Of a stretch of 64,000 nucleotides of DNA, positions 5,401 through 56,676 are shown one piece after another. This stretch comes from Candidatus Bipolaricaulota bacterium. GTDB lineage: Bacteria > Patescibacteriota > Patescibacteriia > UBA11705 > DATKZF01. A model generated the notes under the pieces. It saw only the letters and a program-made list of their open reading frames with translations, ran no database searches and had not been told where the DNA came from. Within the stretch, counting starts at the first letter, position 1. The number at the start of each line of letters is the position of its first letter. The stretch spans positions 160,312 through 224,311 of the forward strand of contig DATKZF010000001.1 of the NCBI GenBank assembly GCA_035528115.1, given 5' to 3'. The position numbers and the translations under genes were made by a program.

Positions 5401-5640
5401 CGTTACACGTTACGAATTATTACTTCTGAATTAGCTAGCCTTGGGTTTTGTCTGTTTCTTTTATTACGAATAATTACAAATACGTTACGAATACGTTACA
5501 AATTACTGCAGCTGGTAAGTTTGCCTTGGCGTTATGTTTATTACAAATACGTTACGAATTATTACTTCTAAATTAGCTAGCCTTGGATTTTGGCTCTTTG
5601 TTTAGGTGACGTTACGAATATCTGGCTAGCCTTGGTTTTA
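5401..5640. repeat. Tandem direct repeats (about 2.5 copies, period about 140 bp) containing the ACGTTACGAAT core, upstream of the atp operon
   Basis: acgttacgaattattacttct[ga]aattagctagccttgg at 5403-5448 and 5545-5592, with a partial third copy at 5609-5638. Confidence 0.6.
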
Positions 5641-16833: not shown

Positions 16834-18423
16834 TCAAATTAAAGACTTGCCTTCCATGTCTTCGGTCGCTGACAAATCCAACAGCTTTAAAATCGTCGGC
16901 GCCACGTCGGCCAAGATACCGGCCGGCTTAATCAGACTCAAATCATTGCCGAGGCTTTCCGCGCCGGATAAATTTTTGCCTTCCCATTCTTTGCCGACAA
17001 TGATGAAAGGCACCGGATTTCGAGTATGTTCTTTCGTGACCTCACCGGTATTAACGTCTTTCATTTGCTCGGCGTTCCCATGATCCGCGGTGATGATCAC
17101 CACGCCGCCTTTCGATAAAACCAAATCGACTATCGTGCCCAAATGCTTATCCACTATTTCCGCGGCTCGTTTGGCCGCCTCGATATCTCCTGTATGCCCG
17201 AGCATATCCATATTTGAAAAATTGCACACGATAAAATCATAAACCTCTCTTAATATTTCCTTTTCAAGGCGTTTTGATATTTCCGGCGTCGCCATTTGAG
17301 GCGTCCGAGCGTAGGAATCCGCCATGGGCGAAGGCATCACCACTCTATCTTCATTAATGAAAGGCTCCTCCGCTCCCCCGTCGAAAAAGAACGTGACATG
17401 CGCGAATTTTTCCGTTTCCGCCACATGCAGTTGCTTGAAACCGTTTTCGGAAATGATTTTCGCCAAGGAATTTTTTATCACCTGCTTCGGATAAGCCACT
17501 CCGATCGTTGCCAAATCTTCCGAATATCTGACCAATGAAATAACGGCAATATTGTCCATTTTAGGTCCACGCTCGAATTTATCGAAATTATCCGAAACAA
17601 AAGCTCCTGCCAATTGCCCTGCGCGATCGCCTTTCAAATTGAAAAAAATGACAGCGTCATTTTGTTGTATCGTTGTTTTTGGCCGACCACCGCTGGTCAA
17701 AACCACCGGCACAAAGCCATCATCGAATATTCCTCTATTATAAGACGCCGCGATGGCTTCCGCCGCGTTATCGTAAAATTCATCGGCTTGTCCGTTGGCC
17801 ATGGCCACGAAAGCTCTTTGAGTGCGCTCCCAATGTCCGTCCCGATCCATGGCGAAAAATCTGCCAGAGATCGAAGCGATTTCCCCCACACCAAGTTCCG
17901 CGCATTTTTTTTCAACTTCGGCGATCAAACCGGCGCCGCTGTCTTTAATGGAATCAACTCCGTCGAGAATGGCATGAATAAAAACTCGATTGACTTTTTG
18001 CCGACGAGCCAATTCAAGCAAAGCGAACAGATGCCTCAATGAACCGTGAACATCGCCATCGCTGACAATGCCGATCAAGTGCAACCCGGATTTATTGGCC
18101 TTGACATGGTTAATCGCTTTAAGCAATTCCTGATTATTGAAAAAATCGCCGTTCTTGATGGATCTGTCTATTCTGGGCAAATTTTGATAAAACACTTTGC
18201 CGATGCCCATGGTCATGTGTCCGACTTCAGAATTGCCGGGTTCATTTTCCGCCAACCCAACCGCTTCTCCCGAAGCGAGCAACGTTAATGAAGGATAATT
18301 GGACACCAAACGATTAAAATTCGGCGTTTTAGCCAAAGTAATCGCGTTGACGTCCGAAGGCTGCGCAACTCCCCAGCCGTCAAGAATCATCAACAATACG
18401 GGTTTGGGAATATTTTTATACAT
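16834..18423 (-). CDS. gpmI: 2,3-bisphosphoglycerate-independent phosphoglycerate mutase
   Basis: MILDGWG...GNSEVGHM, the Ser-containing catalytic motif. Length 529 aa. Confidence 0.9.
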   Translation of the reverse strand: MYKNIPKPVLLMILDGWGVAQPSDVNAITLAKTPNFNRLVSNYPSLTLLASGEAVGLAENEPGNSEVGHMTMGIGKVFYQNLPRIDRSIKNGDFFNNQELLKAINHVKANKSGLHLIGIVSDGDVHGSLRHLFALLELARRQKVNRVFIHAILDGVDSIKDSGAGLIAEVEKKCAELGVGEIASISGRFFAMDRDGHWERTQRAFVAMANGQADEFYDNAAEAIAASYNRGIFDDGFVPVVLTSGGRPKTTIQQNDAVIFFNLKGDRAGQLAGAFVSDNFDKFERGPKMDNIAVISLVRYSEDLATIGVAYPKQVIKNSLAKIISENGFKQLHVAETEKFAHVTFFFDGGAEEPFINEDRVVMPSPMADSYARTPQMATPEISKRLEKEILREVYDFIVCNFSNMDMLGHTGDIEAAKRAAEIVDKHLGTIVDLVLSKGGVVIITADHGNAEQMKDVNTGEVTKEHTRNPVPFIIVGKEWEGKNLSGAESLGNDLSLIKPAGILADVAPTILKLLDLSATEDMEGKSLI

Positions 18424-18447: not shown

Positions 18448-19992
18448 TCAAGTCAATGATTTGGTTCTGATTTTATGATCGCCTTGATCCAAAAGTCGCA
18501 AAATCGTGGGTAATACGTTAGCCAAGCGGCCTCCGGATTTGAGTTTAAACTGTTTTCCGGAAGAGACGACGATAAAAGGGACTTTGTTGGTGGTGTGTTC
18601 GGTGTATTTTTCTCCGGTTTTCAAATCAATCATTTTCTCGGCATTGCCATGATCGGCGCTGATAACGCAACTGCCGCCCATGGCTTTTATTCTTTTATAA
18701 ATCGCGCCCACGCATTTGTCCACTGCACAAATGGCTTTTACCGCGGCGTCGAGATTGCCCGTGTGACCGACCATATCCGGATTGGCGAAATTCACCGCAA
18801 AATAATCGTATTGCCTTTTGGACAATAAATCAAGAATCTTGTCCGTGATTTTATAAGCGCTCATTTCCGGTTTCAAATCATAACTCCTGACATTGGGCGA
18901 CGGAATTTTGATTCTGTCTTCGCCGTTGACGGGCACGTCCGAACCGCCGTTCAAAAAGTAAGTGATGTGAGCGTATTTTTCCGTTTCCGCGACATAGACC
19001 TGTCTTAAATTTTCCAATACTTTCGGCATGGTATTTTTTAAAGTAATACTGGGGAAGGCGGTCAAAATATGATCCAGATCAGGACCGAAATCGGTCAGCG
19101 CCACAAATGACAAATTCTTCAACGCTTTTTTTCTGCGAAAAGACTTAGGGTTGCGTTGATTAAAATCTTTTTGCACAAAAGCTTTAGCCAATTGCCGCGC
19201 GCGGTCAGATCGCAAATTGAAAAATATCACGCCGTCATTGTCTTTTATCAAAACGGTCTTTTTTCGTCCGTTCAATATCAAAGACGGTTCCAAAAATTCA
19301 TCGGTCAAGCCTCTGTTATAAGAATGCAAAATGGCTTTGTCAAAATTGCCAAAATATTCTCCTTGACCCGAAGTCAGCATCTCATACGCCTTTTGAGTGC
19401 GCTCCCATTTTTTATTTCTGTCCATGGCAAAATATCTGCCGATAAGCGAAGCGATAAAAGCATTTTCAGGCAACTTTTTTTGCACTTGGCGCAAAATATC
19501 GGCCGCGGCGAATTGCGGCGAATCGCGGCCGTCCGTAAATAAATGCAAATATATTCTTTTGCATTGTTTGCAAACCAATTTGGTCAGAGCCAAAAGATGC
19601 TCCAAACTCATGTGCGGACTGCTATGCAAAGAAATCAAACCCATCAAATGCAGATCGGATTCATTGGAATTTACGTGCTTTATTAATTGAATAAAAGCCG
19701 GATTTTTATAAAACGTGCCGTTCTTTATGGCTTTGGAAATAATCACTGAGTCTTGCACGACAACTTTGCCCGCGCCGATATTCATGTGACCTGACTCGGA
19801 ATTACCCACTTGCAAATCCGGCAAGCCGACATGATGGCCGTGAGCGAACAAAGACGTGCTCGGATATTTCTTGATTAAAAAATCGTAATTCGGTTTTTTC
19901 GCCAATTCAATCGCATTGCCTCTGTTTTTCTGAGCCAATCCCCAACCGTCCAAAATCATGAAAATGAGCGGCAAATTTGATTTTGAAGACAT
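18448..19992 (-). CDS. Second, diverged paralog of cofactor-independent phosphoglycerate mutase
   Basis: MILDGWGLAQ...GNSESGHM. Roughly 40-45% identical by eye to the adjacent gpmI. Confidence 0.8.
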   Translation of the reverse strand: MSSKSNLPLIFMILDGWGLAQKNRGNAIELAKKPNYDFLIKKYPSTSLFAHGHHVGLPDLQVGNSESGHMNIGAGKVVVQDSVIISKAIKNGTFYKNPAFIQLIKHVNSNESDLHLMGLISLHSSPHMSLEHLLALTKLVCKQCKRIYLHLFTDGRDSPQFAAADILRQVQKKLPENAFIASLIGRYFAMDRNKKWERTQKAYEMLTSGQGEYFGNFDKAILHSYNRGLTDEFLEPSLILNGRKKTVLIKDNDGVIFFNLRSDRARQLAKAFVQKDFNQRNPKSFRRKKALKNLSFVALTDFGPDLDHILTAFPSITLKNTMPKVLENLRQVYVAETEKYAHITYFLNGGSDVPVNGEDRIKIPSPNVRSYDLKPEMSAYKITDKILDLLSKRQYDYFAVNFANPDMVGHTGNLDAAVKAICAVDKCVGAIYKRIKAMGGSCVISADHGNAEKMIDLKTGEKYTEHTTNKVPFIVVSSGKQFKLKSGGRLANVLPTILRLLDQGDHKIRTKSLT

Positions 19993-28328: not shown

Positions 28329-28934
28329 TTATTTGGCGTCAATCACGAAGGTGGCGATAATACCCGGGACTTCATCCATTCTCTTTTCCATTTCAGCGTT
28401 GGCCGTGGATTGCGCGCGATCCCAAGTGAATATATGTTGCGAATTTTCAGTGATATAAACCGGTTTCGGCCCTTCGGCGTCTTTTTGGATATCCCACTGA
28501 TCATGAGTAAAAATCGTTATGGCGAACAATCCGTCTTTTTGCGCGGGCAAACCGAAATAAAAAGATGGCGCTGAGCCGACCTGCCAGGAGGTGTTCTTTT
28601 CCACGAGATTATACTCTTTCCACTCCGCGGGCAAAGTCAAACCGAAACCGTATTCAGAATTATAATAATCTATTTCCTCCTCGATCATCGCCTCCGCTGT
28701 CGCTTCCTCCGCAACCGGTTCATTAATGACCTCCGCCTCGATTTCATTGGCTATCTCATTCTCATTTTCCAACCAATCCTCCAAGGAACGAGCGTCATTT
28801 TGCGATTTTAAGTAATAAAACAGCAGCCCCAGTCCGGAGAGCAGGACAATTAATAAAACTATCAAAAGAATCAAAAGCCCATTGGTTACTTTCGGACTTG
28901 GCATATTTGGCGATGTTATCGGATCTTCCGGCAT
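28329..28934 (-). CDS. Hypothetical N-terminally anchored protein
   Basis: 201 aa with a TM helix after a Pro-rich N-terminus, an acidic linker, and a globular C-terminus. Confidence 0.5.
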   Translation of the reverse strand: MPEDPITSPNMPSPKVTNGLLILLIVLLIVLLSGLGLLFYYLKSQNDARSLEDWLENENEIANEIEAEVINEPVAEEATAEAMIEEEIDYYNSEYGFGLTLPAEWKEYNLVEKNTSWQVGSAPSFYFGLPAQKDGLFAITIFTHDQWDIQKDAEGPKPVYITENSQHIFTWDRAQSTANAEMEKRMDEVPGIIATFVIDAK

Positions 28935-32244: not shown

Positions 32245-33108
32245 TTATAAAGATTTTATCGAAAAGTTATTCCACAAATCCTTATTTGAAATTTCCTCGC
32301 CTTGAGGGCTTTTCGAACCCGCTTTTACATTCACTTTTTTTACCGCGTCAAACACATACCAATCGTATCGATCACCGTCTTCGAGCGGCGTGTCGCAAAC
32401 ATAATAAATTTTATCGCCTTCATATTTATCAAAGACGCAAACCGTTTTATGATCCTTCGCCAAATCATAACCATCTATTTTTACGGGAAAATAATCAATT
32501 TTGAAAAATATTTTATCGGAAATACCGATAATCGCTTTCGTTGAAACCGCTGTCAAATCCGCCGTCGCGGCATTTTTGGCGGACAGCTTATCATAGGAGG
32601 ACGTTGAATCCAACAGCATCAAAAATTTTTCATTGGCCCGGCAAGCTTGCTTCAATTCATATCCTTGTTGCTGATAATAAGCGAACGCTCGATTATTGTA
32701 TTTCAAATAAAAAGGTATTTTGTCGCTGAAAGAAGGATATCCATCATTAAACTCGATAGAGCAGTCTTCAACCACTTTGGCGGCTTCAGGCAAATCTCTC
32801 TCAATGAGTTCCTGATTGATCCTGTCCTTTTCTTCCAAATCCGCCACGTGTTTGTTCAGTTCGTCTATCTTCGCTTGCAATTCATTTTGAGTCGCGGCTC
32901 CGACAGTCTCTTTCGCCCGTTGGACGGTTTGCGATTGGGAAAAATAAAAAATTACCGCGGTTGTAATTAAAATTAAGACAACGCCGACGATAATCGAAGC
33001 GGCCTTGGTCGGCTTCAAAGTCTCCGGCAATTTTCGAGAAGTCTTTTCCTTATTACCGAATTCTTTCATTTCTTGATTGTGTTTTCCCATTTCATCGCTC
33101 ATATTCAT
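32245..33108 (-). CDS. Hypothetical N-terminally anchored protein with a coiled coil
   Basis: 287 aa with a TM helix and coiled coil. Tyr-rich, Cys-containing C-terminal domain. Confidence 0.5.
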   Translation of the reverse strand: MNMSDEMGKHNQEMKEFGNKEKTSRKLPETLKPTKAASIIVGVVLILITTAVIFYFSQSQTVQRAKETVGAATQNELQAKIDELNKHVADLEEKDRINQELIERDLPEAAKVVEDCSIEFNDGYPSFSDKIPFYLKYNNRAFAYYQQQGYELKQACRANEKFLMLLDSTSSYDKLSAKNAATADLTAVSTKAIIGISDKIFFKIDYFPVKIDGYDLAKDHKTVCVFDKYEGDKIYYVCDTPLEDGDRYDWYVFDAVKKVNVKAGSKSPQGEEISNKDLWNNFSIKSL

Positions 33109-38020: not shown

Positions 38021-38190
38021 TCGGAAACTGGGAATTAGAAATTAGGGTTGGAGAAGAAAATTGCTTCATTGCTTCATTGTTTCATTGTTACATTGTTATG
38101 TGATATGTGTTCCATGATTCATGCTCCCCGCCTTCGCCCTATCGGGGCTTCGGCGGGCGTGTTACATGACACATCAAGACACAAGCCACT
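38021..38190. repeat. Family-B intergenic element, second copy (between the murF 3-prime end and tRNA-Glu)
   Basis: cggaaactgggaattagaaattagggttggagaagaaaattgcttcattgcttcattgtttcattgttacattgtt followed by a ccccgccttcgcc...cggcgggcg hairpin. About 80% identical to 510-600. Confidence 0.6.
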
Positions 38191-48169: not shown

Positions 48170-48342
48170 GTTACGAATTACATTCCTCTATTAAACTTTT
48201 AGGTTATCTGTTACGTATTACAATATTCTCAAGATTAAAGCTATAAGTAAATATAATTTGCAACAACAGATTGGAAGCCAAATGGAATCTTGTAATTCGT
48301 AACAACCGCTTGAAAGCTATCCAGCAGATTGTAATTCGTAAC
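48170..48342. repeat. MITE-like element family A (copy with a duplicated right end)
   Basis: GTTACGAATTACA at 48170-48182. TGTAATTCGTAAC at 48291-48303 and again at 48330-48342. Confidence 0.7.
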
Positions 48343-48422
48343 AATATTATTTCAAAACCGTCCCCGTCTCCATATACAGGTGGAAAAATTCAACTAAATT
48401 TAGCTAAAAAATAAAGCAATCC

Positions 48423-48451
48423 TTGACTTTTTATTGATTTTGTGATATAAT
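48423..48451 (+). promoter_or_regulatory. Sigma-70 promoter TTGACT-N17-TGaTATAAT (extended -10)
   Basis: TTGACT at 48423-48428 and TATAAT at 48446-48451, preceded by TG. AAGGAGG follows, and the ATG is at 48504. Confidence 0.6.
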
Positions 48452-48503
48452 GTTATTAGTTTTCTAAACAACGACAGGCCTGAATGGCCTAAGGAGGCAC
48501 GAG

Positions 48504-49268
48504 ATGAAGCAGTGGATGTGCGCCATGTTGGCGCTGGTTCTGGTCGGCTGTTGGCAGGCGCCGCAGCCGGAAAAAACGATGTACAACCCAAACCCCATGA
48601 GCCGGCTCGAAGCGGAATGCCCGCAAGGCACGTTCCTACTGGAGCTGAATTCCAGCACGTTCATGGCTCAATTCTGCTCGGACAGTTACTTTGTCCAGCA
48701 GGGTCCCTTCAAGGAGTGGGAGCATGGACGACTCTCACGAGAAGGGCAGGCGCTCGACGACAAAGCTGTCGGACAGCACACCTTCATGAACTACGACCGT
48801 GATGGCAACGTCGCCGAGATCCGCAAGAGCGACTACAACTCCAAGGGAGAGCAGGACGGCTTCGAGACCCGCTACTACGCGGACGGCCAGGTGGAGGTCA
48901 TTTGGCCGTTCACCCGAGGGATGGAAAACGGCATCACGGAGTGGTATTACCCCAGTGGAAGTTTGGGCGGATACTGCAACTACCTCGTCGGGCTCCAAGA
49001 TGGCGAGTGTGCCAGCTTTTTCCCCGACGGTCGTCTCTGGGAAGCTCTGGAGTACGACCACGGCAGATTGGTAGGAGCGTACCTGCCCGACTCGCCAGCC
49101 ACGTTCGTAGATGCTGGCGGGAATGGGTACGTCGAGTACCTCAACAATGAGGGGCTCGTGACCACCAGCGGCCGGTACGAAAACGGCCGTAAGGAGGGCT
49201 GCTGGCAGAACAGGCACAGGGAATCCGTCCTCTATATGGACGGGAAAATCCTCGGCTTTAACTGCTAG
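48504..49268 (+). CDS. Lipoprotein with MORN-like (YwqK-type) repeats
   Basis: MLALVLVGCW lipobox. Repeated YYxDGxxxxxxxxxxGxxxGxxxxYYPSG modules. GC about 62-67%, the highest in the window. Confidence 0.65.
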   Translation: MKQWMCAMLALVLVGCWQAPQPEKTMYNPNPMSRLEAECPQGTFLLELNSSTFMAQFCSDSYFVQQGPFKEWEHGRLSREGQALDDKAVGQHTFMNYDRDGNVAEIRKSDYNSKGEQDGFETRYYADGQVEVIWPFTRGMENGITEWYYPSGSLGGYCNYLVGLQDGECASFFPDGRLWEALEYDHGRLVGAYLPDSPATFVDAGGNGYVEYLNNEGLVTTSGRYENGRKEGCWQNRHRESVLYMDGKILGFNC

Positions 49269-49290
49269 TTTGTTTCTCCTTTTCAACCAG

Positions 49291-49328
49291 ACCGCCAAGG
49301 GCACCTCCTTTGGCGGTCGATTTTTTTT
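49291..49328 (+). terminator. Rho-independent terminator
   Basis: ACCGCCAAGGGCACCTCCTTTGGCGGTC hairpin followed by a T8 run. Confidence 0.7.
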
Positions 49329-49388
49329 AAATTTTGCAAAATGATTGACGCGCTAAAACAATGGAGCAATGAGACAATGGAACAATCG

Positions 49389-50012
49389 TCACTTCAGCAC
49401 CGTCCCCGTCTCCAAATACCATAAATACAAATCCAGCTCTGCCAGATTCAAGCCGGCTCGCTCCCCCACTTTTCTCAAAACCTTTTCCATTTGAAGATAA
49501 TTTTTTTCGTTTAATGTTTTCGGCCGCTTGATCAACTTTTCTTTTTCCAAAATATCAATGATGTGAAAATCGATAATGGCTGAATCTTTATAGCCGATAT
49601 TTCGCAAAAAATGACTGGCCTCTTTCCAGCCTAAGCCTTTGATGTTTTCCACCAGCCAATCCCGCAATTCCGATTCACTTAATTTTTTCATCAACTTTTC
49701 CAATTCATTTTTGCGCTTTTGCGCCAAAGCAATGTAATTCGCCCGTTTGGTATGAAATCTAGCGCCGCATCGTTGTAAAACTTTTTGCAATTTGTTCTCG
49801 GACAAATTCAAAAATCCGTCGCCTACTTTGGCCTGAACTTCAAGGCATCTTTGCGCGGTGGAATTGGCGGTCAGCAGGCAAAAGCACAGCTCTTTGAAAA
49901 TTTCATCGCTTGATCCTTTGCCCGCTTTTTTAAATTCCAAAATCCTTCGGTCAATCACTTTTTTAACCGGGGATTTTTTTAATTCGGCTATTTGTTTCAA
50001 TGTTTTTATCAC
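49389..50012 (-). CDS. 8-oxoguanine DNA glycosylase/AP lyase (Ogg2-like HhH-GPD enzyme)
   Basis: 207 aa with an HhH-GPD-like core (LRNIGYKDSAIIDFHIIDIL). Assigned by family resemblance only. Confidence 0.55.
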   Translation of the reverse strand: MIKTLKQIAELKKSPVKKVIDRRILEFKKAGKGSSDEIFKELCFCLLTANSTAQRCLEVQAKVGDGFLNLSENKLQKVLQRCGARFHTKRANYIALAQKRKNELEKLMKKLSESELRDWLVENIKGLGWKEASHFLRNIGYKDSAIIDFHIIDILEKEKLIKRPKTLNEKNYLQMEKVLRKVGERAGLNLAELDLYLWYLETGTVLK

Positions 50013-50602
50013 ATTGTCCGTTCACTGTTTAATCGCTTAAAAGTTATTCTTTTCAATGTCTCTCTGCATTTTTTGTAATCCGGCGAAGCCACGGCCACCA
50101 AATTCCAAAAATTTCGCGAATGATTCATTTCTTTCAAATGACACAACTCATGCGCGACAATGTATTCGGCCAATTCGTCCGGCAGAAATAAAATTCGGTA
50201 ATTAAAACACAAATTGCCGTCGGACGAACAGCTCCCCCACCTTGACTTCGCGTTTTTAACGCTGACTTGTTTGTATTTGAAATTGTAAACGTCATTGACC
50301 GCCAAAAGTTTTTTATCAATTATTTTCTTCGCTCTGAATTTGCAGGCGTCAAAATTTGTCTGGCCGAATTCGCTCATTTCCGCTGGGATCGCGTTTCTTT
50401 CAATCAAACTGATTTTTTCCGCCACAAAAGACGAATTTTTTTCTACGAAATCAAAAATGGCTTTTTCGCTCAAACGAGTCGGAGCCACCACCGTAACCTC
50501 GGCCTCTTGCGATATTATAATTTTCAACCGTCTGGACAAACGGTTTCGTTTCAATTTGAAAAATATTTTTCGGTCGGCGATATTTAAATAAGGCATAATC
50601 AA
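50009..50602 (-). CDS. YgjP/DUF45-family metal-dependent hydrolase (WLM-like, HExxH)
   Basis: IVAHELCHLKEMNHSRNFW. Confidence 0.75.
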   Translation of the reverse strand: MIMPYLNIADRKIFFKLKRNRLSRRLKIIISQEAEVTVVAPTRLSEKAIFDFVEKNSSFVAEKISLIERNAIPAEMSEFGQTNFDACKFRAKKIIDKKLLAVNDVYNFKYKQVSVKNAKSRWGSCSSDGNLCFNYRILFLPDELAEYIVAHELCHLKEMNHSRNFWNLVAVASPDYKKCRETLKRITFKRLNSERTM

Positions 50603-50677
50603 TCATATTTTAACATCCTGACGCGTCCGCATCAAATTTAAAAGCCGCCAGAAGTGATCCGCGGCTCGAAAAATGGG

Positions 50678-50992
50678 TTACAAACAGGACAAACAGTCCT
50701 CCCCGAAAAACACGCAGTCCTCAACGCAACGTCTCAAGTCAACCAAATCTTCTTGGGACTGGAGACGAAGTTCCCTTTCGTCGGCCAAGCGTACTTCCAG
50801 ATCTTCGATGTCCCGAAGAAGCAATTGAGGGGAATCGCGCCTTGACGGCAAATGATCAGCCGCCTTCATCTGGTTCTCGCAGTGGCGGCACAGAATCCAC
50901 CCGGACAAAATCACGACCGCCAACAGCGCTTTATCGGACCGCCACCATGGTTTTCCCTTGACCACGATCTGACGATTTTGCGTCATCTGCAT
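50678..50992 (-). CDS. Small Cys-containing membrane protein. The listed ORF extends to 51052.
   Basis: One TM helix (ALLAVVILSGWIL). CRHC and C-terminal CVEDCVFFGEDCLSC motifs. GC-richer than its flanks. Confidence 0.45.
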   Translation of the reverse strand: MQMTQNRQIVVKGKPWWRSDKALLAVVILSGWILCRHCENQMKAADHLPSRRDSPQLLLRDIEDLEVRLADERELRLQSQEDLVDLRRCVEDCVFFGEDCLSCL

Positions 50993-51062
50993 TCCTCCAG
51001 AGGCATAATTGCCGACAATTGTATATATTACCAGATTTATTTTCTTTGTCAATACGAAAATT

Positions 51063-51515
51063 TTATTCTCGCGGCGTTTCCTTCCCGTAGAATTTCATCA
51101 GCGCTTCGCGCCATTCTTTCGAAGAAATAAAATCATCCAACAATTTATATTGAATTTCCAGTTCCCTTCGGCGATGCTTTTCCAGCGCTTCATGCAGATG
51201 GCGGCCGTTGACTTTGCTATTTTCAACATCATCATTTAAAAAATTCTCTTTTATCATGTCCATCAATTTTATTATATTCCCGTGATCTCGATGAGCCACG
51301 GTTGTCGGGCCCGTTTCATTTTCGAAACCGAAATGCTCGTCAAAGCGTGGAAATAAAAAGTTATCTTCAAGCGAAATATGCATTGAGATGTATTTTTGAA
51401 ATCGCTTAAATAAAACGGACGCATTGTCATTCTCAACATCTTCTTTCAAAAATTCCAACCACAATTTATCGAGAAATTCATGATCAGCGTCCATGAAATC
51501 GCCGATTAGTCCCAT
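51063..51515 (-). CDS. Hemerythrin-like (HHE cation-binding) protein
   Basis: His and Glu spacing (HEFLD...H..E...H..H...E) consistent with a hemerythrin-domain four-helix bundle. Confidence 0.5.
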   Translation of the reverse strand: MGLIGDFMDADHEFLDKLWLEFLKEDVENDNASVLFKRFQKYISMHISLEDNFLFPRFDEHFGFENETGPTTVAHRDHGNIIKLMDMIKENFLNDDVENSKVNGRHLHEALEKHRRRELEIQYKLLDDFISSKEWREALMKFYGKETPRE

Positions 51516-51595
51516 ACATTTCTTTTTTTATAACTTTATTCAACCATATCATTTTCAGGCGACAAAATCAATTTAAAAAGCCAAGCATTTGATGC

Positions 51596-53068
51596 TCAGC
51601 TCGCGGATGTTTCCTCGTCCTTTTTTCTTTTCAACCTGGCCGGAAGTTCTTTCAACCATCTGAAGAATTTGCGTTCCTCTTTCTGTCTGCGGAATTTGCG
51701 CAGACTCAGATGTCCGTAAATGGTGAGAAAGAAATTGCGCAAGCGCTGACTTTTCCTGCCGTATGGCGGCAAGAGGCTCAACAGCGCCCGCTTGATCACC
51801 CTGCCCCATGAATAGAACCGAGGCATGGCTTGGAGCATAACCGCTTTTTGCAGCTGCCAGGCGGGGATCTTAGCCGGTTCGAACACGACGTGATGAGAAT
51901 CGTAGTAACGCCACGATCTGGAGAGCAGTCTGCCTGCCTCTTCGAGCTTTTGGTACGTTTCAGCGCCGGGCAATGGCGTCAAGATCGAAAACATCACAGT
52001 GTCGATCCTCATGTTAATGGCGAATCTGACCGTGTCCTTGATCGTCTTCAGGTCGTCATGATCTCCGCCGAGAATAAACATGCCGTGCACGGCAATGCCA
52101 TGCTTGTGGAACACTTTGATCGAATTTCTGATTTCCTCGACGGTTTGGTCTTTTTTCCACTCTTTCAGAGTTTCCGGATTGACGGATTCAATGCCGACAT
52201 AGACCTGATTGCAGCCCGCGTCGCGCATCAAAGCCATCAGCTCAATATCCTTGGCGGAATTTACGGTCACCTGAGCGAACCAGTTGAAGCCGGCGCCCGT
52301 TCGTTTTCTCATCTCGATCAGCGACCGAAGCAGTTCCTTGGTGCGCTTCGGTTTGCCGACAAAATTGTCATCATAGAAAAATATCGAACGTCCGGGCAGC
52401 AGAGTGATAAGTCTTTCCACTTCGGCCACCACCGACTCGACGCTCGCGCAACGCAGCTTGCGGCCGAACATGGGAGTGACTGAGCAAAACTCGCACCGTT
52501 TGTGACAGCCGCGAGATGTCTGAATGGGAATGAAGCGCAGGCGATCCAAACCTTCGATGAGATCAAGCGCCGGGAAAGGGATGTGGTCGAATATATCTTG
52601 GTCTCGCTCGCGATTCGGATTATCGATGCGCTTGCCCGCGACTTTGTATGAAATACCGCTGATCTCGTCCAAGGCGCGCCGATTTTCCAGCCATTCGATG
52701 ATCTCGACGATGACAATTTCGCCTTCGCCGCGAACCACGATATCCACCCCGTTCTCCAACGCCTCGTGCGGCAGGAACGTCACATGCGGTCCACCCATGA
52801 TCACGGGTTTGTTAGGATTTTCGTCCTTGATTTTCCGAGCGATTTCGTACGCCCGCTCGGCCGTGCAAGTAATGGTGGAGATCCCCACCAAATCGCAAGC
52901 GTCCACGTACGACCAGTTGATCCTAGCCAGATCTTCACAGAAGACTTTGACCGTGTGTCCCATGTCTCGCAAAATGGCCGCCAAGATCGGCAGGCCGAGT
53001 CTCGGCAAAACGAACTTCTTGAACACGTTAAGTCCGGGCGAACGAGGCTCGATCAGCGCTATTTGCAT
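51596..53068 (-). CDS. B12-binding-domain radical SAM enzyme
   Basis: N-terminal cobalamin-binding Rossmann fold, then CHKRCEFCSV (CxxxCxxC). Length 490 aa. Confidence 0.85.
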   Translation of the reverse strand: MQIALIEPRSPGLNVFKKFVLPRLGLPILAAILRDMGHTVKVFCEDLARINWSYVDACDLVGISTITCTAERAYEIARKIKDENPNKPVIMGGPHVTFLPHEALENGVDIVVRGEGEIVIVEIIEWLENRRALDEISGISYKVAGKRIDNPNRERDQDIFDHIPFPALDLIEGLDRLRFIPIQTSRGCHKRCEFCSVTPMFGRKLRCASVESVVAEVERLITLLPGRSIFFYDDNFVGKPKRTKELLRSLIEMRKRTGAGFNWFAQVTVNSAKDIELMALMRDAGCNQVYVGIESVNPETLKEWKKDQTVEEIRNSIKVFHKHGIAVHGMFILGGDHDDLKTIKDTVRFAINMRIDTVMFSILTPLPGAETYQKLEEAGRLLSRSWRYYDSHHVVFEPAKIPAWQLQKAVMLQAMPRFYSWGRVIKRALLSLLPPYGRKSQRLRNFFLTIYGHLSLRKFRRQKEERKFFRWLKELPARLKRKKDEETSAS

Positions 53069-53177
53069 GATATCTTTCCCTTCCTTTGTTTTTTTTGAAA
53101 GAACCGTATAAATTTTAGCATATTTAAAACATCAGGGGAACAAAAAACCGCCCAGGTGGTCGGTAATCATATGTAAA

Positions 53178-53190
53178 TGTAATTCGTAAC
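53178..53190. repeat. Solo family-A terminal 13-mer TGTAATTCGTAAC
   Basis: Exact 13-mer in the spacer between the radical SAM gene and the DUF333 gene. Confidence 0.5.
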
Positions 53191-53732
53191 TATTTGCAGT
53201 CTATGGAACAACTCTTTGACGTTTCCGCGCAAGCGCAATCCAAACTCTCGCAAACGACTTCCTGGCACTCCCCGTCGCCGCAGGTATCTTTGCAAAAATT
53301 ATCTCCGGGCGCGCATTCGCCCCTGAAATATTCCCATTCCGAGCACTCTGAATTGTCATCAAACAAACAAAAACCGGCCTGACCGTTGGCCAAAGTTCTG
53401 ATTTCCAATTTGCCGCCATTGTCTTCGCAATAAACCGACGCCGGATTGGCCAGCCCCGCGTTGTTCCCCACTGCGTTCAAATTATTGTCATCTTCATTTA
53501 TTTCTTCGACAAAAAGTCTGCCGTCTTCCGTTCTACATTGACGAGGATAGCTTTCCATAATCGCGTAGCCCGCGTCAGCGCATTCGTCAAAATCGGATAT
53601 TTTGCCCTCGATTTTCATTTTTTCGAATAAATCAAGGTCGTTATCGGCGATGTAGGACCACAAGTAATAAACCAGAAATCCTCCGCCCGCGACAATGACG
53701 ACGCTGGCGATGATCAGAATTATTTTTTTCAT
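53190..53732 (-). CDS. DUF333-like secreted Cys-rich protein
   Basis: Signal/anchor helix. NPASVYCEDNGGKLE...GFCLFDDNSECSEWEYFRGEC core, plus a Cys-rich tail. Confidence 0.55.
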   Translation of the reverse strand: MKKIILIIASVVIVAGGGFLVYYLWSYIADNDLDLFEKMKIEGKISDFDECADAGYAIMESYPRQCRTEDGRLFVEEINEDDNNLNAVGNNAGLANPASVYCEDNGGKLEIRTLANGQAGFCLFDDNSECSEWEYFRGECAPGDNFCKDTCGDGECQEVVCESLDCACAETSKSCSIDCK

Positions 53733-53733
53733 A

Positions 53734-54450
53734 TCAGCTTATTTTAAATGTCGCCAAAATTTCTTTCAATGTTTCAGGTTTATCCGTTTCGTTTTCATAA
53801 ACGCACGCGTCGTAATCTTTATCGCCCTCGGTTCCATAAACGCCGCAATTTGGGTATTTGACACTAAAATTCGCGATCAAAAATTGTCCGACATTTTCCG
53901 TCGCGTAATAATAATCGACATAAGTCGAGCCGGCCGCGCCTTCAATGTGCCGATAAACGCAGAAAGGCTTTTTGGCAATGGTGATTTTCTCGCCGAGCGC
54001 GTTATCCCAATAATAAGAGGTGGGAACTCCCGGAGCCATCGATTTTTCAATGGCATAGCCCGTGGCCTTTTCAACGGCTTGATCGATGTTCGGGCATTTA
54101 TTGGGAAAATCCTGATCTTTGGCCGCAATACTGACGACTTTGGGATCTTGATAAAAAAACTCGTCCGGATATTTGAATTCCACTCCATTATCATCGAAAG
54201 CCGTCCAATCCGCGGTAAGGTCAACCGCCTCGGGCGCTTTTTCAACCGTCGCCGGAGCTTCTTTGTCGCCCGCGTTGATATTGGCCAATTTATCCTCGAT
54301 TTGTTTTTGAGACGCGGTCACTTCGTTTTTCAATTCGGCCAGCTTGTTGTTTTGCCAATACAAAAAGAGGCAGACCAAAAAAATGGTACTGATCAGCGCG
54401 GCCGCGACCGCAAAGCCGCCGAATGAGGGTTTGGGTGTTTGTTTTTCCAT
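53734..54450 (-). CDS. Anchored secreted protein, paralog family member A
   Basis: A TM helix and LAELKNEVTASQKQIEDKL coiled coil, then a distinct Cys-containing globular domain. Confidence 0.55.
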   Translation of the reverse strand: MEKQTPKPSFGGFAVAAALISTIFLVCLFLYWQNNKLAELKNEVTASQKQIEDKLANINAGDKEAPATVEKAPEAVDLTADWTAFDDNGVEFKYPDEFFYQDPKVVSIAAKDQDFPNKCPNIDQAVEKATGYAIEKSMAPGVPTSYYWDNALGEKITIAKKPFCVYRHIEGAAGSTYVDYYYATENVGQFLIANFSVKYPNCGVYGTEGDKDYDACVYENETDKPETLKEILATFKIS

Positions 54451-54464
54451 ATAATTACAAATAT

Positions 54465-55154
54465 TTATTTTATTTCGATCACTTTAACTAACTCAGCTGT
54501 ATTGTATACCTCTGTTTGTCGCAAATTTATCATGTAATTATCAATCTCGATAGTCGCCTCGCCTCTGCTGCCCGCTGGTCCGAAAAGCTTTTTGGCCAGC
54601 TCTTGATTTGTAAAACAAAACCAAATATTTCTATCGTCATTCGCGAATTTTGGAAATTTACCAATATCTGTTTGTTTAATATTATCAAAGCAAACATTTC
54701 CATCACGTCCGCCTAACATATCCTCTCCCGGCTTATAATATGTATAGTTGCCAGTCACGGTGATTTTACCTCTGAAAAAAAATTCGCTTTTATCCAAATC
54801 AGCCGTATAAAAAGTCATATCGCCCTTGTTGCTTAAATTCAATCCGTCAGCCCTTCCTGTTTCGATTTTCGACGCGTCTTTTATCTCATTCTCTTCTTCC
54901 TCGGCAAATTCTTCTTCTTTAATTACTTCTCCGATTACTGCCTCCTCCGTCGCCAGCGGCGTCATCTTCTCAATTTTTTCGCTTAATGTAATTTGATTCT
55001 CCGCCAGTTTCTGAATCGGATTAACCACTGCGGTGTAATACCACAAATACGCTCCGCCCACGCACAAAATCGCGGCCACGATGATCGCCGTGATTATCAT
55101 GATGTAGCACGGCAGCATGGATTTTTTTGTTTGTTTTTTTGTTTTTCTCGGCAT
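54465..55154 (-). CDS. Anchored secreted protein, paralog family member B
   Basis: The N-terminus YLWYYTAVVNPIQKLAENQITLSEKIEKMT closely matches member C. The C-terminal domain is different. Confidence 0.55.
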   Translation of the reverse strand: MPRKTKKQTKKSMLPCYIMIITAIIVAAILCVGGAYLWYYTAVVNPIQKLAENQITLSEKIEKMTPLATEEAVIGEVIKEEEFAEEEENEIKDASKIETGRADGLNLSNKGDMTFYTADLDKSEFFFRGKITVTGNYTYYKPGEDMLGGRDGNVCFDNIKQTDIGKFPKFANDDRNIWFCFTNQELAKKLFGPAGSRGEATIEIDNYMINLRQTEVYNTAELVKVIEIK

Positions 55155-55286
55155 AACTGTTTAATTTTTATTGTTTATGAATAAATTATAACATAAACCC
55201 TCATATTTGTAATAAATTTATGTGCATAAAAATCATTTAAAATTAAAAACCGGCAACAAATAATTCGCGCCGGTTTCAAGCTCTTA

Positions 55287-55964
55287 TTAGTCAATGAATT
55301 TAATGGTTTCAACCATCTGATTAAACAAATTCTTATATGAATCCCATTTGCTCGCATCCACCTGGTATAAAAACATATAGACGTGACCGTCTTTCGTAAA
55401 CTTTAAACTATATGCCTCAAGTTTATTTCCGTCATAAGTGCCGCTGAATAAATTCCTCTTGGCGCTTACGCCGTCAACTGTGATATCCGCCTCGCTCTGT
55501 ATTTCCGATAAATACTCAAATCCAATTCCCGGGTTATCGACTAAAACAATGAGAGAAAGATTTTTTGAAAAAGGATTTACCGCCGGCACTGAGCTATCTT
55601 CCAGCTGAAGCCATAAACCGCCTTCCGTGGAATAAGAATTCTTGGTCATTTTCCAATTTTTCGGATATTGAAATGAGAACCCCAAATTAGCGTCAATATA
55701 GGCATTATTTTTTATTTCCGGCACGACCTCCGCTTGTTCCTCGGCGACGACCGCTTGAGAGGCTTCATAAGTCAATTTGTCGAGCTTATCGCTCAAGATT
55801 TTTTGATTTTCCGCTAATTGCTGAATCGGGGCTTGCAGAGAATACCACATGTAGATTCCTCCGGCGATTAAAAGGACTACCACTAAAACTCCCACCACAA
55901 GCATCGAGTATGAAATCTTTGATGGCGTTGCGGGAGGTGTTTCAATAGAATTTTGATTTAACAT
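55287..55964 (-). CDS. Anchored secreted protein, paralog family member C
   Basis: The N-terminus YMWYSLQAPIQQLAENQKILSDKLDKLT is also similar at DNA level to member B. The C-terminal domain is different. Confidence 0.55.
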   Translation of the reverse strand: MLNQNSIETPPATPSKISYSMLVVGVLVVVLLIAGGIYMWYSLQAPIQQLAENQKILSDKLDKLTYEASQAVVAEEQAEVVPEIKNNAYIDANLGFSFQYPKNWKMTKNSYSTEGGLWLQLEDSSVPAVNPFSKNLSLIVLVDNPGIGFEYLSEIQSEADITVDGVSAKRNLFSGTYDGNKLEAYSLKFTKDGHVYMFLYQVDASKWDSYKNLFNQMVETIKFID

Positions 55965-56013
55965 AAATTACTAATGTTACGGCTATTAAGCTAGCCTTTG
56001 TTTTTATTTAAAA

Positions 56014-56116
56014 ATTACGAATGGTTACGAATTACAATCATCCCGTTGGCTTTTAGGTTATTTGTTACTAATTACAATCTTCTTAGGCATAAAGCTATAA
56101 GTTAATGTACTTCATA
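56014..56116. repeat. MITE-like element family A (partly degenerate), followed by a fragment of family-B repeat
   Basis: GTTACGAATTACA at 56014-56026 and the internal ttaggttatttgttac segment. The right end is degenerate. The 56120-56160 stretch catgctccatgatacatgatacgtgacacatg matches the 3-prime end of the 483-660 element. Confidence 0.55.
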
Positions 56117-56164
56117 ACAATGCTTCATGCTCCATGATACATGATACGTGACACATGAATTATA

Positions 56165-56198
56165 CCACAAAACATAAAAGGCCGGGAAATTCCGGCCC
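56165..56198 (-). terminator. Rho-independent terminator closing the mraZ-rsmH-ftsL unit
   Basis: Perfect GGCCGGGAAATTCCGGCC hairpin, followed on the minus strand by a U-rich tract. Confidence 0.6.
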
Positions 56199-56211
56199 AA
56201 TGAAATTTGAT

Positions 56212-56577
56212 TTAGCGTTTGGCCACGCCCGTGCCCGTATCCACGATATAAGCGAAATCGGTAATCGGCACCATGTCCAGATTTTGGACTTTCTCGCTCA
56301 ATTCCGCCATTGATCTCAATCTGACCGCGTCCAGACTCAATTTTTTGTTTTCTTCATCGTACTTGGCGACTTTGCTTTCAAGCTCTTGAATTTGGAATCC
56401 TTTGGTCGCCAGACTGTTTATTTGCAGCAGGTACAAAAAGACCGAGCCGGCTAATATTATTATAACCAAAACCTTGACCAACAATGATGATTTATTGTTA
56501 AAATTAAAACGCGTTTTTTTGATTTCCGGACGTTTTGACGCAGTCGCGGATTTTCGAAATTTATAAAATGGGGACAT
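56212..56577 (-). CDS. ftsL: FtsL-like bitopic cell-division protein
   Basis: 121 aa with a basic N-terminus, one TM helix, then a coiled coil. It sits directly after rsmH, as in dcw clusters. Confidence 0.55.
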   Translation of the reverse strand: MSPFYKFRKSATASKRPEIKKTRFNFNNKSSLLVKVLVIIILAGSVFLYLLQINSLATKGFQIQELESKVAKYDEENKKLSLDAVRLRSMAELSEKVQNLDMVPITDFAYIVDTGTGVAKR

Positions 56578-56676
56578 AAGTTTTGCATGCTTGCCCTCCG
56601 TAGCCCTGCCTACCGGCAGGTTTAGCGAAGGAGGGAATCATGGATCAATTTTATTTTTTATTTTTGTTTTTGAACT

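What the first reader, a model, noticed from the sequence alone, without database searches (positions are those of the whole stretch)
53190..55964. Run of four co-oriented anchored secreted proteins: a shared N-terminal anchor plus coiled-coil module with swapped C-terminal heads
The three paralogs at 53734-54450, 54465-55154 and 55287-55964 all start with a TM helix followed by a conserved segment (members B and C: YLWYYTAVVNPIQKLAENQITLSEKIEKMT versus YMWYSLQAPIQQLAENQKILSDKLDKLT, also similar at nucleotide level). Their C-terminal globular domains are unrelated to each other. The fourth gene, at 53190-53732, is a DUF333-like Cys-rich protein. The N-module resembles the FtsL/FtsB-type anchor of the neighbouring ftsL (56212-56577), and the block sits exactly where ftsI would be in a canonical dcw cluster. 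That suggests duplication of a divisome-anchor module onto different extracytoplasmic domains. The alternative is a cassette-like surface protein family diversified by head swapping. The block is flanked by family-A repeat elements on both sides.
Basis: partly seen in the sequence, partly recalled or inferred. Interest (0 to 1): 0.6.

Follow-up and report, generated by a model that had tools for sequence, protein, structure and literature searches.

The report
Tandem membrane-anchored proteins with reshuffled heads
Just downstream of the cell-division gene ftsL, a small group of uncultured ultra-small bacteria carries a variable tandem set of membrane-tethered proteins that combine one of two conserved anchor modules with different outward-facing heads (several PsbP-like); the family is real and undescribed but narrow, with no detectable homology to division proteins.

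Summary
All four ORFs exist as stated. B (54465-55154) and C (55287-55964) share a real N-terminal module, N1: a Lys-rich tail, a TM helix, then WYY-x5-PIxxLxxNQxxLxxxI. A profile built without window sequences finds B at E 4e-32 and C at 7e-16. A (53734-54450) does not carry N1 (E 0.26). It has a second anchor type, N2.

Five to six related metagenomic lineages carry arrays of 3-9 such genes. Wherever the flanks are visible, the array lies between mraZ-rsmH-ftsL and a DUF333/Cys-rich gene (D). The N2 gene is always last and abuts D.

The anchor is under strong purifying selection (dN/dS 0.04-0.22 among paralogs). It shows no homology to FtsL (hhalign probability 2-3%). An ftsI-like gene lies 12 kb downstream, and terminator-like hairpins separate ftsL, C and B-A-D.

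N1 occurs in only 25 of 1.84 billion representative proteins. This is a lineage-specific modular envelope-protein family. The divisome link is not supported, and function is inferred only.

The parts
55287..55964 (-). Gene C: N1 anchor + acidic linker + PsbP-like head. Appears monocistronic.
   Evidence: ORF. PF18933 PsbP_2 at 30.3 bits against GA 27, residues 77-219. N1 HMM built without window sequences gives E 6.8e-16. Head orthologs are L009_8604 (37%) and L006_3545 head 1 (30%).
55740..55928 (-). N1 anchor module of C (aa 13-75): TM helix + WY-x-PIQQLAENQKILSDKLDKL juxtamembrane helix
54465..55154 (-). Gene B: N1 anchor + acidic linker + B-type head of unknown fold. First gene of the B-A-D unit.
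54936..55154 (-). N1 anchor module of B (aa 1-73): MPRKTKKQTKK tail, TM helix, YLWYYTAVVNPIQKLAENQITLSEKIEKM
   Evidence: AF2 predicts a continuous helix over residues 14-62.
53734..54450 (-). Gene A: N2 anchor + linker + A-type head with a PsbP-like fold
54256..54450 (-). N2 anchor module of A (aa 1-65): MEKQTPKPSFGG-TM-LYWQNNKLAELKNEV..QKQIEDKL
   Evidence: AF2 predicts a helix over residues 11-59.
53190..53732 (-). Gene D: TM anchor + 'MESYPRQCR' segment + DUF333 + Cys-rich tail (CKDxCGDGxCQEVVC...C.C.ET..SC..DC). It starts 1 nt after the stop codon of A.
   Evidence: PF03891 at 69.8 bits, residues 93-139. Alignment A1 shows invariant Cys columns. The tight N2-gene/D junction (1-3 nt) is conserved in L004, L006, L008 and L009.
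56179..56198 (-). Terminator-like hairpin plus U-run directly after ftsL
   Evidence: 7 bp stem with 6 GC pairs. dG -14.1 kcal/mol, z -2.9.
55248..55275 (-). Terminator-like hairpin plus U-run after gene C
   Evidence: dG -17.4 kcal/mol, z -4.4, 0 of 200 shuffles as stable
55185..55213 (-). Promoter-like site (ATTACA-17-TATAAT with extended TG) upstream of B
   Evidence: 10 of 12 matches. This is a consensus match only.
56019..56121 (.). Intergenic palindromic repeat element (13-mer GTTACGAATTACA units) between ftsL and C. It is 95% complementary to 58184-58286 upstream of mraZ.
   Evidence: The family is genome-specific and has no Rfam match.
56212..56577 (-). FtsL-like gene (context only, not a family member)
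   Evidence: NCBIfam FtsL_Actino E 1.4e-8, sub-threshold. 59-64% identical orthologs precede the array in L004, L006, L009 and L091.

Best explanation
SHOWN.
- Genes C, B and A belong to a small, previously unannotated family of type II (N-in) single-pass membrane proteins.
- Each protein has a short Lys-rich cytoplasmic tail, a TM helix that continues into a conserved juxtamembrane helix of about 3 heptads, an acidic low-complexity stalk, and one or two extracytoplasmic globular heads.
- There are two anchor types. N1 has the motif G-x2-Y-x-W-[YH]-Y-x5-[PK]-I-x2-L-x2-N-Q-x2-L-x3-I, with Gln invariant in 29/29 sequences. N2 reads LYWQNNxMxELKxE...QKxLxxKVExIENG.
- In every lineage where the flanks are visible, the genes form a tandem array of 3-9 copies. 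The array lies between mraZ-rsmH-ftsL and a tightly abutting N2-gene/DUF333-Cys-rich-gene pair.
- Anchors and heads have been recombined during evolution, and head genes are gained and lost even between close relatives.
- Most heads are PsbP/Mog1/DcrB-like. A few, including B, have no recognisable relatives.

INFERRED.
- The heads are non-enzymatic binding or adaptor domains held on flexible stalks in the space outside the membrane.
- The conserved anchor helix, which has a polar N-Q in the heptad core, makes the paralogs associate laterally, either with each other or with one common membrane partner. This would explain why it stays nearly invariant while the heads diverge.
- The N2 protein and D probably act as a fixed pair.
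- In the window, the transcription units appear to be mraZ-rsmH-ftsL | C | B-A-D.
For: Reality of the family:
- Leave-window-out HMMs recover B, C and A.
- The N1 alignment of 29 sequences shows conserved columns.
- Only 25 of 1.84e9 representative proteins match N1 at E<=1e-3. All are 75-334 aa with N1 at the N-terminus, except one that carries a 36-residue N-terminal extension.

Arrays and synteny:
- L004 has 3 genes, L006 has 9 and L009 has 7. L091, L089, L002 and L003 are partial.
- The N2 gene is always last and lies 1-3 nt from D.

Reassortment:
- The A-type head is on N2 (window, P0006) and on N1 (P0007, P0009, P0022).
- The H4 head is on N1 (L009_4985) and on N2 (L009_9289).
- The B and H5 heads occur alone or behind a PsbP-like head (P0002; L006_3545).

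Constraint on the anchor:
- Five L006 paralogs are 80-94% identical in DNA from the ATG to about +170 nt, then fall to random.
- For these paralogs dS is 0.5-1.2, dN is 0.04-0.11 and dN/dS is 0.04-0.22.

Heads:
- C matches PsbP_2 above the gathering score. Many other heads match it sub-threshold.
- AF2 predicts one long helix through the TM segment and the juxtamembrane segment.

Variability and transcription:
- The array is the most variable part of a conserved block. MraZ is 86-87% identical between lineages, against 30-45% for array orthologs.
- Terminator-like hairpins and a promoter-like site separate the units.
Against: - No functional, expression or localisation data exist. Every relative is a metagenomic contig, and there are only about 5-6 independent lineages.
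- The structure models rest on 3-sequence alignments. B has mean pLDDT 59.8 and A has 69.8.
- Oligomerisation through the anchors was not tested. Strong conservation could instead reflect insertion or targeting requirements.
- Whether N1 and N2 share ancestry is ambiguous (hhalign probability 78%).
- Adjacency to ftsL may be inherited synteny among fairly close relatives rather than a functional link, or the functional link may be real and underrated here.
- Orthologous heads show ordinary purifying selection (dN/dS about 0.07-0.09). That does not favour an arms-race surface role.
Confidence: 0.6

Rival explanations
1. Divisome accessory proteins. The anchors are FtsL/FtsB(DivIC)-like TM plus coiled-coil modules that dock different periplasmic-side domains onto the FtsL-containing division complex. 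The single-copy N2 protein could be the lineage's FtsB/DivIC counterpart.
For: - The array immediately follows mraZ-rsmH-ftsL in all four lineages where the upstream flank is visible: window, L004, L006/L009 and L091.
- The architecture is a bitopic TM plus a short coiled coil with polar core residues.
- Five of six N2 proteins give DivIC (PF04977) alignments that start at profile position 1-2, at 12-16 bits.
Against: - hhalign of N1 or N2 against the FtsL family gives probability 2-3%, and the FtsL HMM finds no array member.
- All DivIC scores are far below the gathering score of 28.9. A control TM+coil protein (window 32245-33108) scores 13.6.
- Copy number (3-9) and head content vary even between close relatives, which is unlike core divisome parts.
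- A terminator-like hairpin follows ftsL in the window, and a reverse-strand DUF218 gene follows it in L004.
- A class B PBP and a Mur ligase are present 12 kb away.
- The compared genomes are close (MraZ 86-87% identical), so the synteny may simply be inherited.
Confidence: 0.12
2. A surface-variation locus. The shared 5' anchor sequence serves as a recombination substrate so that heads are exchanged or switched (antigenic or host-range variation of an episymbiont's surface).
For: - The genes are tandem and co-oriented with a shared 5' module, and anchor/head combinations have been reassorted.
- Array content differs between the close relatives L006 and L009.
- dS across the array and D (0.5-1.4) exceeds dS of rsmH and ftsL (0.12-0.24) in the same genome pair, which hints at a mosaic history.
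- L009 carries duplicated 23S_rRNA_IVP genes inside the array.
Against: - In the window, B and C share only 73% identity over 59 nt. That is too little for frequent homologous exchange.
- The L006 paralog anchors have dS 0.5-1.2, so there is no ongoing conversion.
- Every copy is a complete gene with its own start, and there are no silent cassettes.
- No recombinase, invertase or reverse transcriptase is seen among the locus genes whose families are on record or were scanned.
- Heads are under purifying selection.
- The 103-nt inverted repeats bracket mraZ-ftsL, not the array.
Confidence: 0.15
3. The N-terminal similarity is only compositional (generic TM plus amphipathic helix), and the genes are unrelated neighbours.
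For: - A against B or C is not significant by BLASTP.
- Other anchored TM-linker-head proteins lie elsewhere in the window, at 28329-28934 and 32245-33108.
Against: - B against C gives E 9e-10 with composition adjustment.
- Leave-window-out HMM E-values are 4e-32 and 7e-16.
- N-Q is invariant or nearly so, and there is a positional motif across 29 sequences.
- dN/dS is 0.04-0.22.
- Only 25 hits are found in 1.84e9 proteins.
Confidence: 0.02

Closest known systems
Bacterial PsbP-like / Mog1-fold extracytoplasmic proteins (Pfam PF18933 PsbP_2; structural relatives CyanoP 2xb3, DcrB 6e8a, LpqN 6e5d, MTC28 4pws)
   Same: - C's head passes the PF18933 gathering score.
- Like DcrB, LpqN and CyanoP, the heads are tethered to the outer face of the cytoplasmic membrane and carry no catalytic signature.
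   Different: - Tethering is by a conserved TM plus juxtamembrane helix module (N1 or N2), not by a lipobox.
- The genes form a variable tandem array.
- Some array heads (B, H5, H6, H7) are not PsbP-like.
- The functions of DcrB and LpqN are recalled from my own knowledge and were not tested here.
FtsL / FtsB (DivIC, PF04977) bitopic division proteins
   Same: - N-in single TM helix followed by a short coiled coil with polar core residues.
- Encoded next to ftsL.
   Different: - No significant sequence or profile similarity.
- The array proteins are about 220-355 aa with large heads, multi-copy, and variable in number.
Paralogous envelope-protein families with a conserved N-terminal module and variable C-terminal domains (for example mycobacterial PE/PPE, staphylococcal tandem lipoproteins, mycoplasma variable lipoproteins). 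Comparison from my own knowledge.
   Same: - Tandem or clustered paralogs with a conserved N-terminal targeting or assembly module and divergent or exchanged C-terminal domains.
- Lineage-specific expansion.
   Different: - The anchor modules have no Pfam match above a gathering score and no NCBIfam match.
- No dedicated secretion system or phase-variation machinery is evident.
- The array has a fixed terminal pair (N2 gene + DUF333 gene) and a fixed genomic position.
DUF333 (PF03891) proteins with the CGDGxC Cys-rich tail, found in CPR bacteria and DPANN archaea
   Same: - D matches DUF333 at 69.8 bits.
- The DUF333 plus Cys-rich tail recurs at 57-65% identity in Parcubacteria, Patescibacteria and Micrarchaeota loci.
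   Different: - In this lineage D is TM-anchored, with no lipobox Cys.
- Here D is always coupled to the N2 gene.
- Other DUF333 loci (L010, L012-L088) have no N1 or N2 genes.

Membership tests
FtsL/FtsB/DivIC (PF04977, PF19579, NCBIfam FtsL) | Significant profile match to a family model | tested here: not met
   - B and C have no DivIC hit.
- A scores 12.2 bits and other N2 proteins 12.8-15.8 bits, against GA 28.9. A control TM+coil ORF scores 13.6.
- hhalign against the local FtsL alignment gives probability 2-3%.
FtsL/FtsB/DivIC (PF04977, PF19579, NCBIfam FtsL) | Bitopic N-in TM helix continuing into a coiled coil | tested here: met
   - Lys/Arg-rich N-tail.
- AF2 predicts a continuous helix over residues 14-62 in B and 11-59 in A.
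- Heptad spacing I47/L50/Q54/L57/I61/M64.
FtsL/FtsB/DivIC (PF04977, PF19579, NCBIfam FtsL) | Small protein (about 90-130 aa), single copy, stably conserved | tested here: not met
   The proteins are 201-355 aa with globular heads, and there are 3-9 copies with turnover between relatives.
PsbP-like (PF18933/PF01789; PsbP/Mog1 fold) | Pfam match above the gathering score | tested here: met
   - C is met: PsbP_2 at 30.3 bits > 27 and PsbP at 26.7 > 23.5.
- A and B are not met; neither has a hit.
PsbP-like (PF18933/PF01789; PsbP/Mog1 fold) | alpha-beta-alpha sandwich fold with an N-terminal beta-hairpin and a C-terminal helix | tested here: met
- B's head has no match.
- C was not modelled.
DUF333 (PF03891) | Pfam match above the gathering score | tested here: met
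   D scores 69.8 bits against 25, covering the full 47-position profile.
Recombinational or phase-variable cassette systems | Near-identical repeats able to drive exchange, silent copies, and an associated recombinase or reverse transcriptase | tested here: not met
   - Identity is 73% over 59 nt in the window.
- dS is 0.5-1.2 among the L006 anchors.
- All copies are complete genes.
- Neighbouring genes are rSAM, hemerythrin, YgjP, Ogg, Bro-N and TsaB.
Type IV pilin-like (class III signal peptide) | Pilin N-terminal domain match (Pfam Pilin_N). The G/A/S(-1) cleavage site and Glu+5 were checked by eye only. | tested here: not met
   - The N1 alignment shows a conserved Pro before the TM helix but no G|F site and no Glu+5.
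- The only Pilin_N hit is weak (E 0.005) and falls on the divergent first gene L006_3545.
Bacterial lipoproteins | Lipobox with an invariant Cys at the end of the signal peptide | tested here: not met
   - None of the four has a lipobox Cys after its N-terminal hydrophobic segment: A, C and D have no Cys in their N-terminal regions, and B's Cys17 and Cys31 lie at the start of and within its TM helix.
- LPAM_1 for D gives E 0.2.

The most novel reading that the evidence does not exclude
The N1/N2 helices (with D's anchor) are a dedicated assembly code. They bundle a changeable set of PsbP-like and other heads into one multi-headed membrane complex, positioned with and functionally tied to the FtsL division machinery. 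In effect this would be a lineage-specific, modular extracytoplasmic extension of the divisome or cell-envelope synthesis apparatus in ultra-small bacteria, with the single-copy N2 protein as an FtsB analogue.
Probability: 0.1. Interest if true: 0.65.

Novelty: new variant of a known kind. Interest (0 to 1): 0.38.

Why it matters
Envelope proteins of ultra-small, host-dependent bacteria are almost wholly uncharacterised. This locus gives a clean, testable example of modular construction:
- two short anchor modules that are kept almost invariant;
- interchangeable outward-facing heads;
- a fixed chromosomal position next to the division genes.

If the anchors turn out to mediate assembly, they define a new membrane-docking motif. 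They would also offer a handle for finding what these cells display on their surface. As it stands, this is a narrow, lineage-specific family (25 clusters in 1.84 billion proteins) with no demonstrated function.

Tried and rejected
- Word-indexed homolog searches with B, C and A returned only 3, 1 and 4 proteins including self. C has no close full-length homolog there.
- D's profile against PDB sequences gave no hit.
- The genome-contig scan with the D profile mostly returned unrelated DUF333 loci, chiefly Chloroflexota and DPANN. Only L009 and L011 were syntenic.
- The metagenome scan with FtsL gave 3 loci. One of them, L092, is the same organism as L009.
- Rfam found nothing in 44000-64000.
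- Literature searches for Patescibacteria + ftsL/mraZ, PsbP-like + Patescibacteria, and DUF333 gave nothing relevant.
- Rejected: FtsL homology, a pilin-type signal, lipoprotein anchoring, and ongoing gene conversion.
- Rejected: gene-wide positive selection on the heads.
Full report
**What is at the coordinates.**
- D, 53190-53732, 180 aa
- A, 53734-54450, 238 aa
- B, 54465-55154, 229 aa
- C, 55287-55964, 225 aa

Upstream on the same strand lie an FtsL-like gene (56212-56577; NCBIfam FtsL_Actino E 1.4e-8, sub-threshold), rsmH and mraZ. A Bro-N gene and a tsaB-like gene lie further upstream. Downstream are a B12-binding radical SAM gene, a hemerythrin gene, a YgjP-like gene and an Ogg gene. 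NCBI labels the source MAG 'Candidatus Bipolaricaulota'. Its only syntenic relatives are labelled Patescibacteria or are unlabelled metagenome contigs.

**Is the shared N-module real?**
- B and C align over their N-terminal 61 residues at 43% identity, E 9e-10 with composition adjustment.
- At DNA level the similarity is 73% over 59 nt. It is confined to the end of the TM helix plus the following helix.
- I built an HMM from relatives only, with no window sequence. Among 300 window ORFs it finds B at E 3.7e-32 and C at 6.8e-16, and the next ORF scores 0.015. The refutation condition ('only compositional') therefore fails for B and C.
- A is different. BLASTP gives E 0.1-0.7 against B and C, and the N1 HMM gives E 0.26.
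- A carries a second, equally well conserved anchor, N2 (MEKQTPKPSFGG-TM-LYWQNNxMxELKxE..QKxLxxKVExIENG). An HMM built without A recovers it at E 7e-27.
- N1 and N2 resemble each other only marginally. hhalign gives probability 78%, and B against the N2 HMM gives E 8e-6. Common ancestry is possible but not shown.

**The N1 signature.**
An alignment of 29 N1 sequences shows:
- an MPKxK-type basic tail and a conserved Pro before the TM helix;
- a G-x2-Y-x-W-[YH]-Y motif at the outer end of the helix;
- then [PK]-I-x2-L-x2-N-Q-x2-L-x3-I. Gln is invariant (29/29), and the hydrophobic spacing follows a heptad pattern;
- an acidic linker after that.

AlphaFold2 predicts one continuous helix through the TM and juxtamembrane segments. 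It covers B 14-62 and A 11-59, followed by disordered linkers.

**Relatives.**
- Word-indexed searches found very few homologs. Their contigs, plus two collection scans, gave five to six lineages that carry the same locus.
- The array directly follows tsaB-(Bro-N)-mraZ-rsmH-ftsL in the window, L004, L006/L009 and L091.
- It ends with an N2 gene whose stop lies 1-3 nt from the start of a DUF333/Cys-rich gene in the window, L004, L006, L008 and L009.
- Copy number is 3 in the window and L004, 7 in L009 and 9 in L006.
- A full HMMER scan of 1.84 billion representative proteins with an N1 profile found only 25 proteins at E<=1e-3. All are 75-334 aa with N1 at the N-terminus, except one with a 36-residue N-terminal extension.
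- None of the other DUF333 loci fetched (L010, L012-L088) has an N1 or N2 gene at significant E-values.

**Heads.**
- All-against-all BLASTP and profile-profile comparison define at least eight head classes.
- C's head passes Pfam PsbP_2 (30.3 bits, GA 27). Several other heads match PsbP_2 sub-threshold.
- A and C therefore share a fold class even though their sequences are not detectably related (hhalign probability 3.5%).

**Reassortment.**
- The A-type head is on N2 in the window and in P0006/L008. It is on N1 in P0007 (L006), P0009 (L009) and P0022 (L089).
- The H4 head is on N2 in L004, L006, L009 and L002, and on N1 in L009_4985.
- The B-type head stands alone on N1 in the window and L002. 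In P0002 it follows a PsbP-like domain.
- H5 behaves the same way: L004_8196 carries it alone, while L006_3545 carries it behind another head.
- The junctions fall in the acidic linker, just before the first beta-hairpin of the head.

**Selection.**
- In L006, five tandem paralogs with different heads are 80-94% identical in DNA from the start codon to about +170 nt. Identity then falls to random, and it is also random upstream of the start.
- Their anchors differ mostly at synonymous sites: dS 0.5-1.2, dN 0.04-0.11, dN/dS 0.04-0.22. The anchor is therefore held by purifying selection on the protein, not by recent gene conversion.
- Between the close relatives L006 and L009, orthologous anchors and heads both show dN/dS of about 0.06-0.17. 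This gives no gene-wide evidence of diversifying selection.
- Across lineages the array is the most divergent part of the block. MraZ is 86-87% identical, RsmH 65-69%, FtsL 59-64% and D 47-57%. A is 39-45% and C 30-37%. B's head is absent from L004, L006 and L009.

**Relation to the division cluster.**
- hhalign of N1 or N2 against the local FtsL family gives probability 2-3%. The FtsL HMM hits no array protein.
- DivIC (PF04977) alignments for N2 proteins score 12-16 bits against a cutoff of 28.9. An unrelated TM+coil ORF (32245-33108) scores 13.6.
- A class B PBP (PBP_dimer + Transpeptidase, 39585-41357) and a Mur ligase (38174-39454) lie 12 kb downstream on the same strand. The dcw cluster is therefore split, and ftsI is not replaced.
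- A terminator-like hairpin with a U-run follows ftsL (56179-56198). Another follows C (55248-55275; dG -17.4 kcal/mol, z -4.4).
- A promoter-like site precedes B. B-A-D are 14 and 1 nt apart.
- In L004 a reverse-strand DUF218 gene separates ftsL from the array.

**Repeats.**
- The 13-mer GTTACGAATTACA occurs 21 times against 1.5 expected, in intergenic clusters.
- A 103-nt element between ftsL and C (56019-56121) is 95% complementary to one upstream of mraZ (58184-58286). These two copies bracket mraZ-rsmH-ftsL, not the array.
- On the D side there is only one 13-mer, and it overlaps D's stop codon.
- The family is specific to this genome and has no Rfam match.

**Interpretation.**
- Shown: a lineage-specific, modular family of N-in anchored extracytoplasmic proteins. 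It has two conserved anchor types, heads that have been reassorted, and a fixed position and terminal gene pair.
- Inferred: the heads are non-catalytic binding or adaptor domains. This is by analogy with the PsbP/DcrB/LpqN fold class, whose functions I cite from my own knowledge. The anchor helix mediates lateral association with a common partner or among paralogs. The N2 protein and D work as a pair.
- The divisome-anchor reading is not supported by any sequence test. It survives only through gene adjacency among fairly close relatives.
- An active cassette-switching mechanism is not supported.
- Overall this is a real and previously unannotated family, but a narrow one. It fits the general pattern of paralogous envelope-protein families with a conserved N-terminal module.

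Noticed in passing
window 56019-56121 and 58184-58286: A 103-nt inverted repeat, 95% complementary, brackets the mraZ-rsmH-ftsL trio exactly. Both arms belong to a genome-specific intergenic palindromic repeat family built from GTTACGAATTACA 13-mers at about 40-nt spacing. Other copies lie at 45097-45196, 48170-48342 and 59842-59969, with a variant at 5407-5603. Whether the bracketed segment can invert is unknown.
   Followed up: partly
window 41628-43277 (+): A 549-aa ORF on the opposite strand to most genes, made of about 14 tandem 29-aa repeats (FTLSEEQKNNLVDSLIKxNPxELLSNLxK). TRF reports period 87 nt and 11.3 copies at 42166-43145. It has no Pfam match.
   Followed up: partly
L010, L012, L018, L033 (DPANN archaea) compared with window 53190-53732: The DUF333 plus 'FCKDxCGDGxCQExVCxAxGCPCAET..C..DC' tail of gene D recurs in Micrarchaeota at 51-65% identity, similar to the Patescibacteria loci (57-58%), and more weakly in a Nanoarchaeota MAG (39%). 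In these archaea it is fused to other domains. This suggests exchange of the module between ultra-small bacteria and archaea.
   Followed up: partly
L009 4584-4967 and 7404-7787 (also L092): Two near-identical copies of a 127-aa 23S_rRNA_IVP (PF05635) four-helix-bundle gene are inserted inside the array. Each lies just upstream of an array gene and shares the same upstream sequence (the 'MFLCAFVNF' extension). They are absent from the close relative L006.
   Followed up: partly
window 38174-41357: A class B PBP (ftsI-like) and a Mur ligase lie 12 kb downstream of ftsL. The dcw cluster of this genome is therefore split by about 12 kb of unrelated genes, including the array, radical SAM, hemerythrin, Ogg, TGT and a Band 7 gene.
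   Followed up: partly
window 28329-28934 and 32245-33108: Two further proteins share the same general plan (TM helix, coil or acidic linker, extracytoplasmic head) but lack the N1/N2 motifs. The first has the 'YGFGLTLPAEW' hairpin typical of PsbP-like heads. Anchored PsbP-like proteins seem to be a common design in this genome.
   Followed up: no
window 16834-18423 and 18448-19992: Two tandem paralogs of cofactor-independent phosphoglycerate mutase (iPGM), with stretches of 72-76% DNA identity.
   Followed up: no
window 58539-59387: A Bro-N domain gene, a family I know as typically phage-associated, sits between tsaB and mraZ. It is conserved at the same position in L004.
   Followed up: no
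L006 compared with L009, whole locus: Synonymous divergence is very uneven along the syntenic block: rsmH 0.12, ftsL 0.24, mraZ 0.45, array genes 0.5-1.1 and D 1.4. This suggests a mosaic or recombinant history, with the array/D part older or imported.
   Followed up: no
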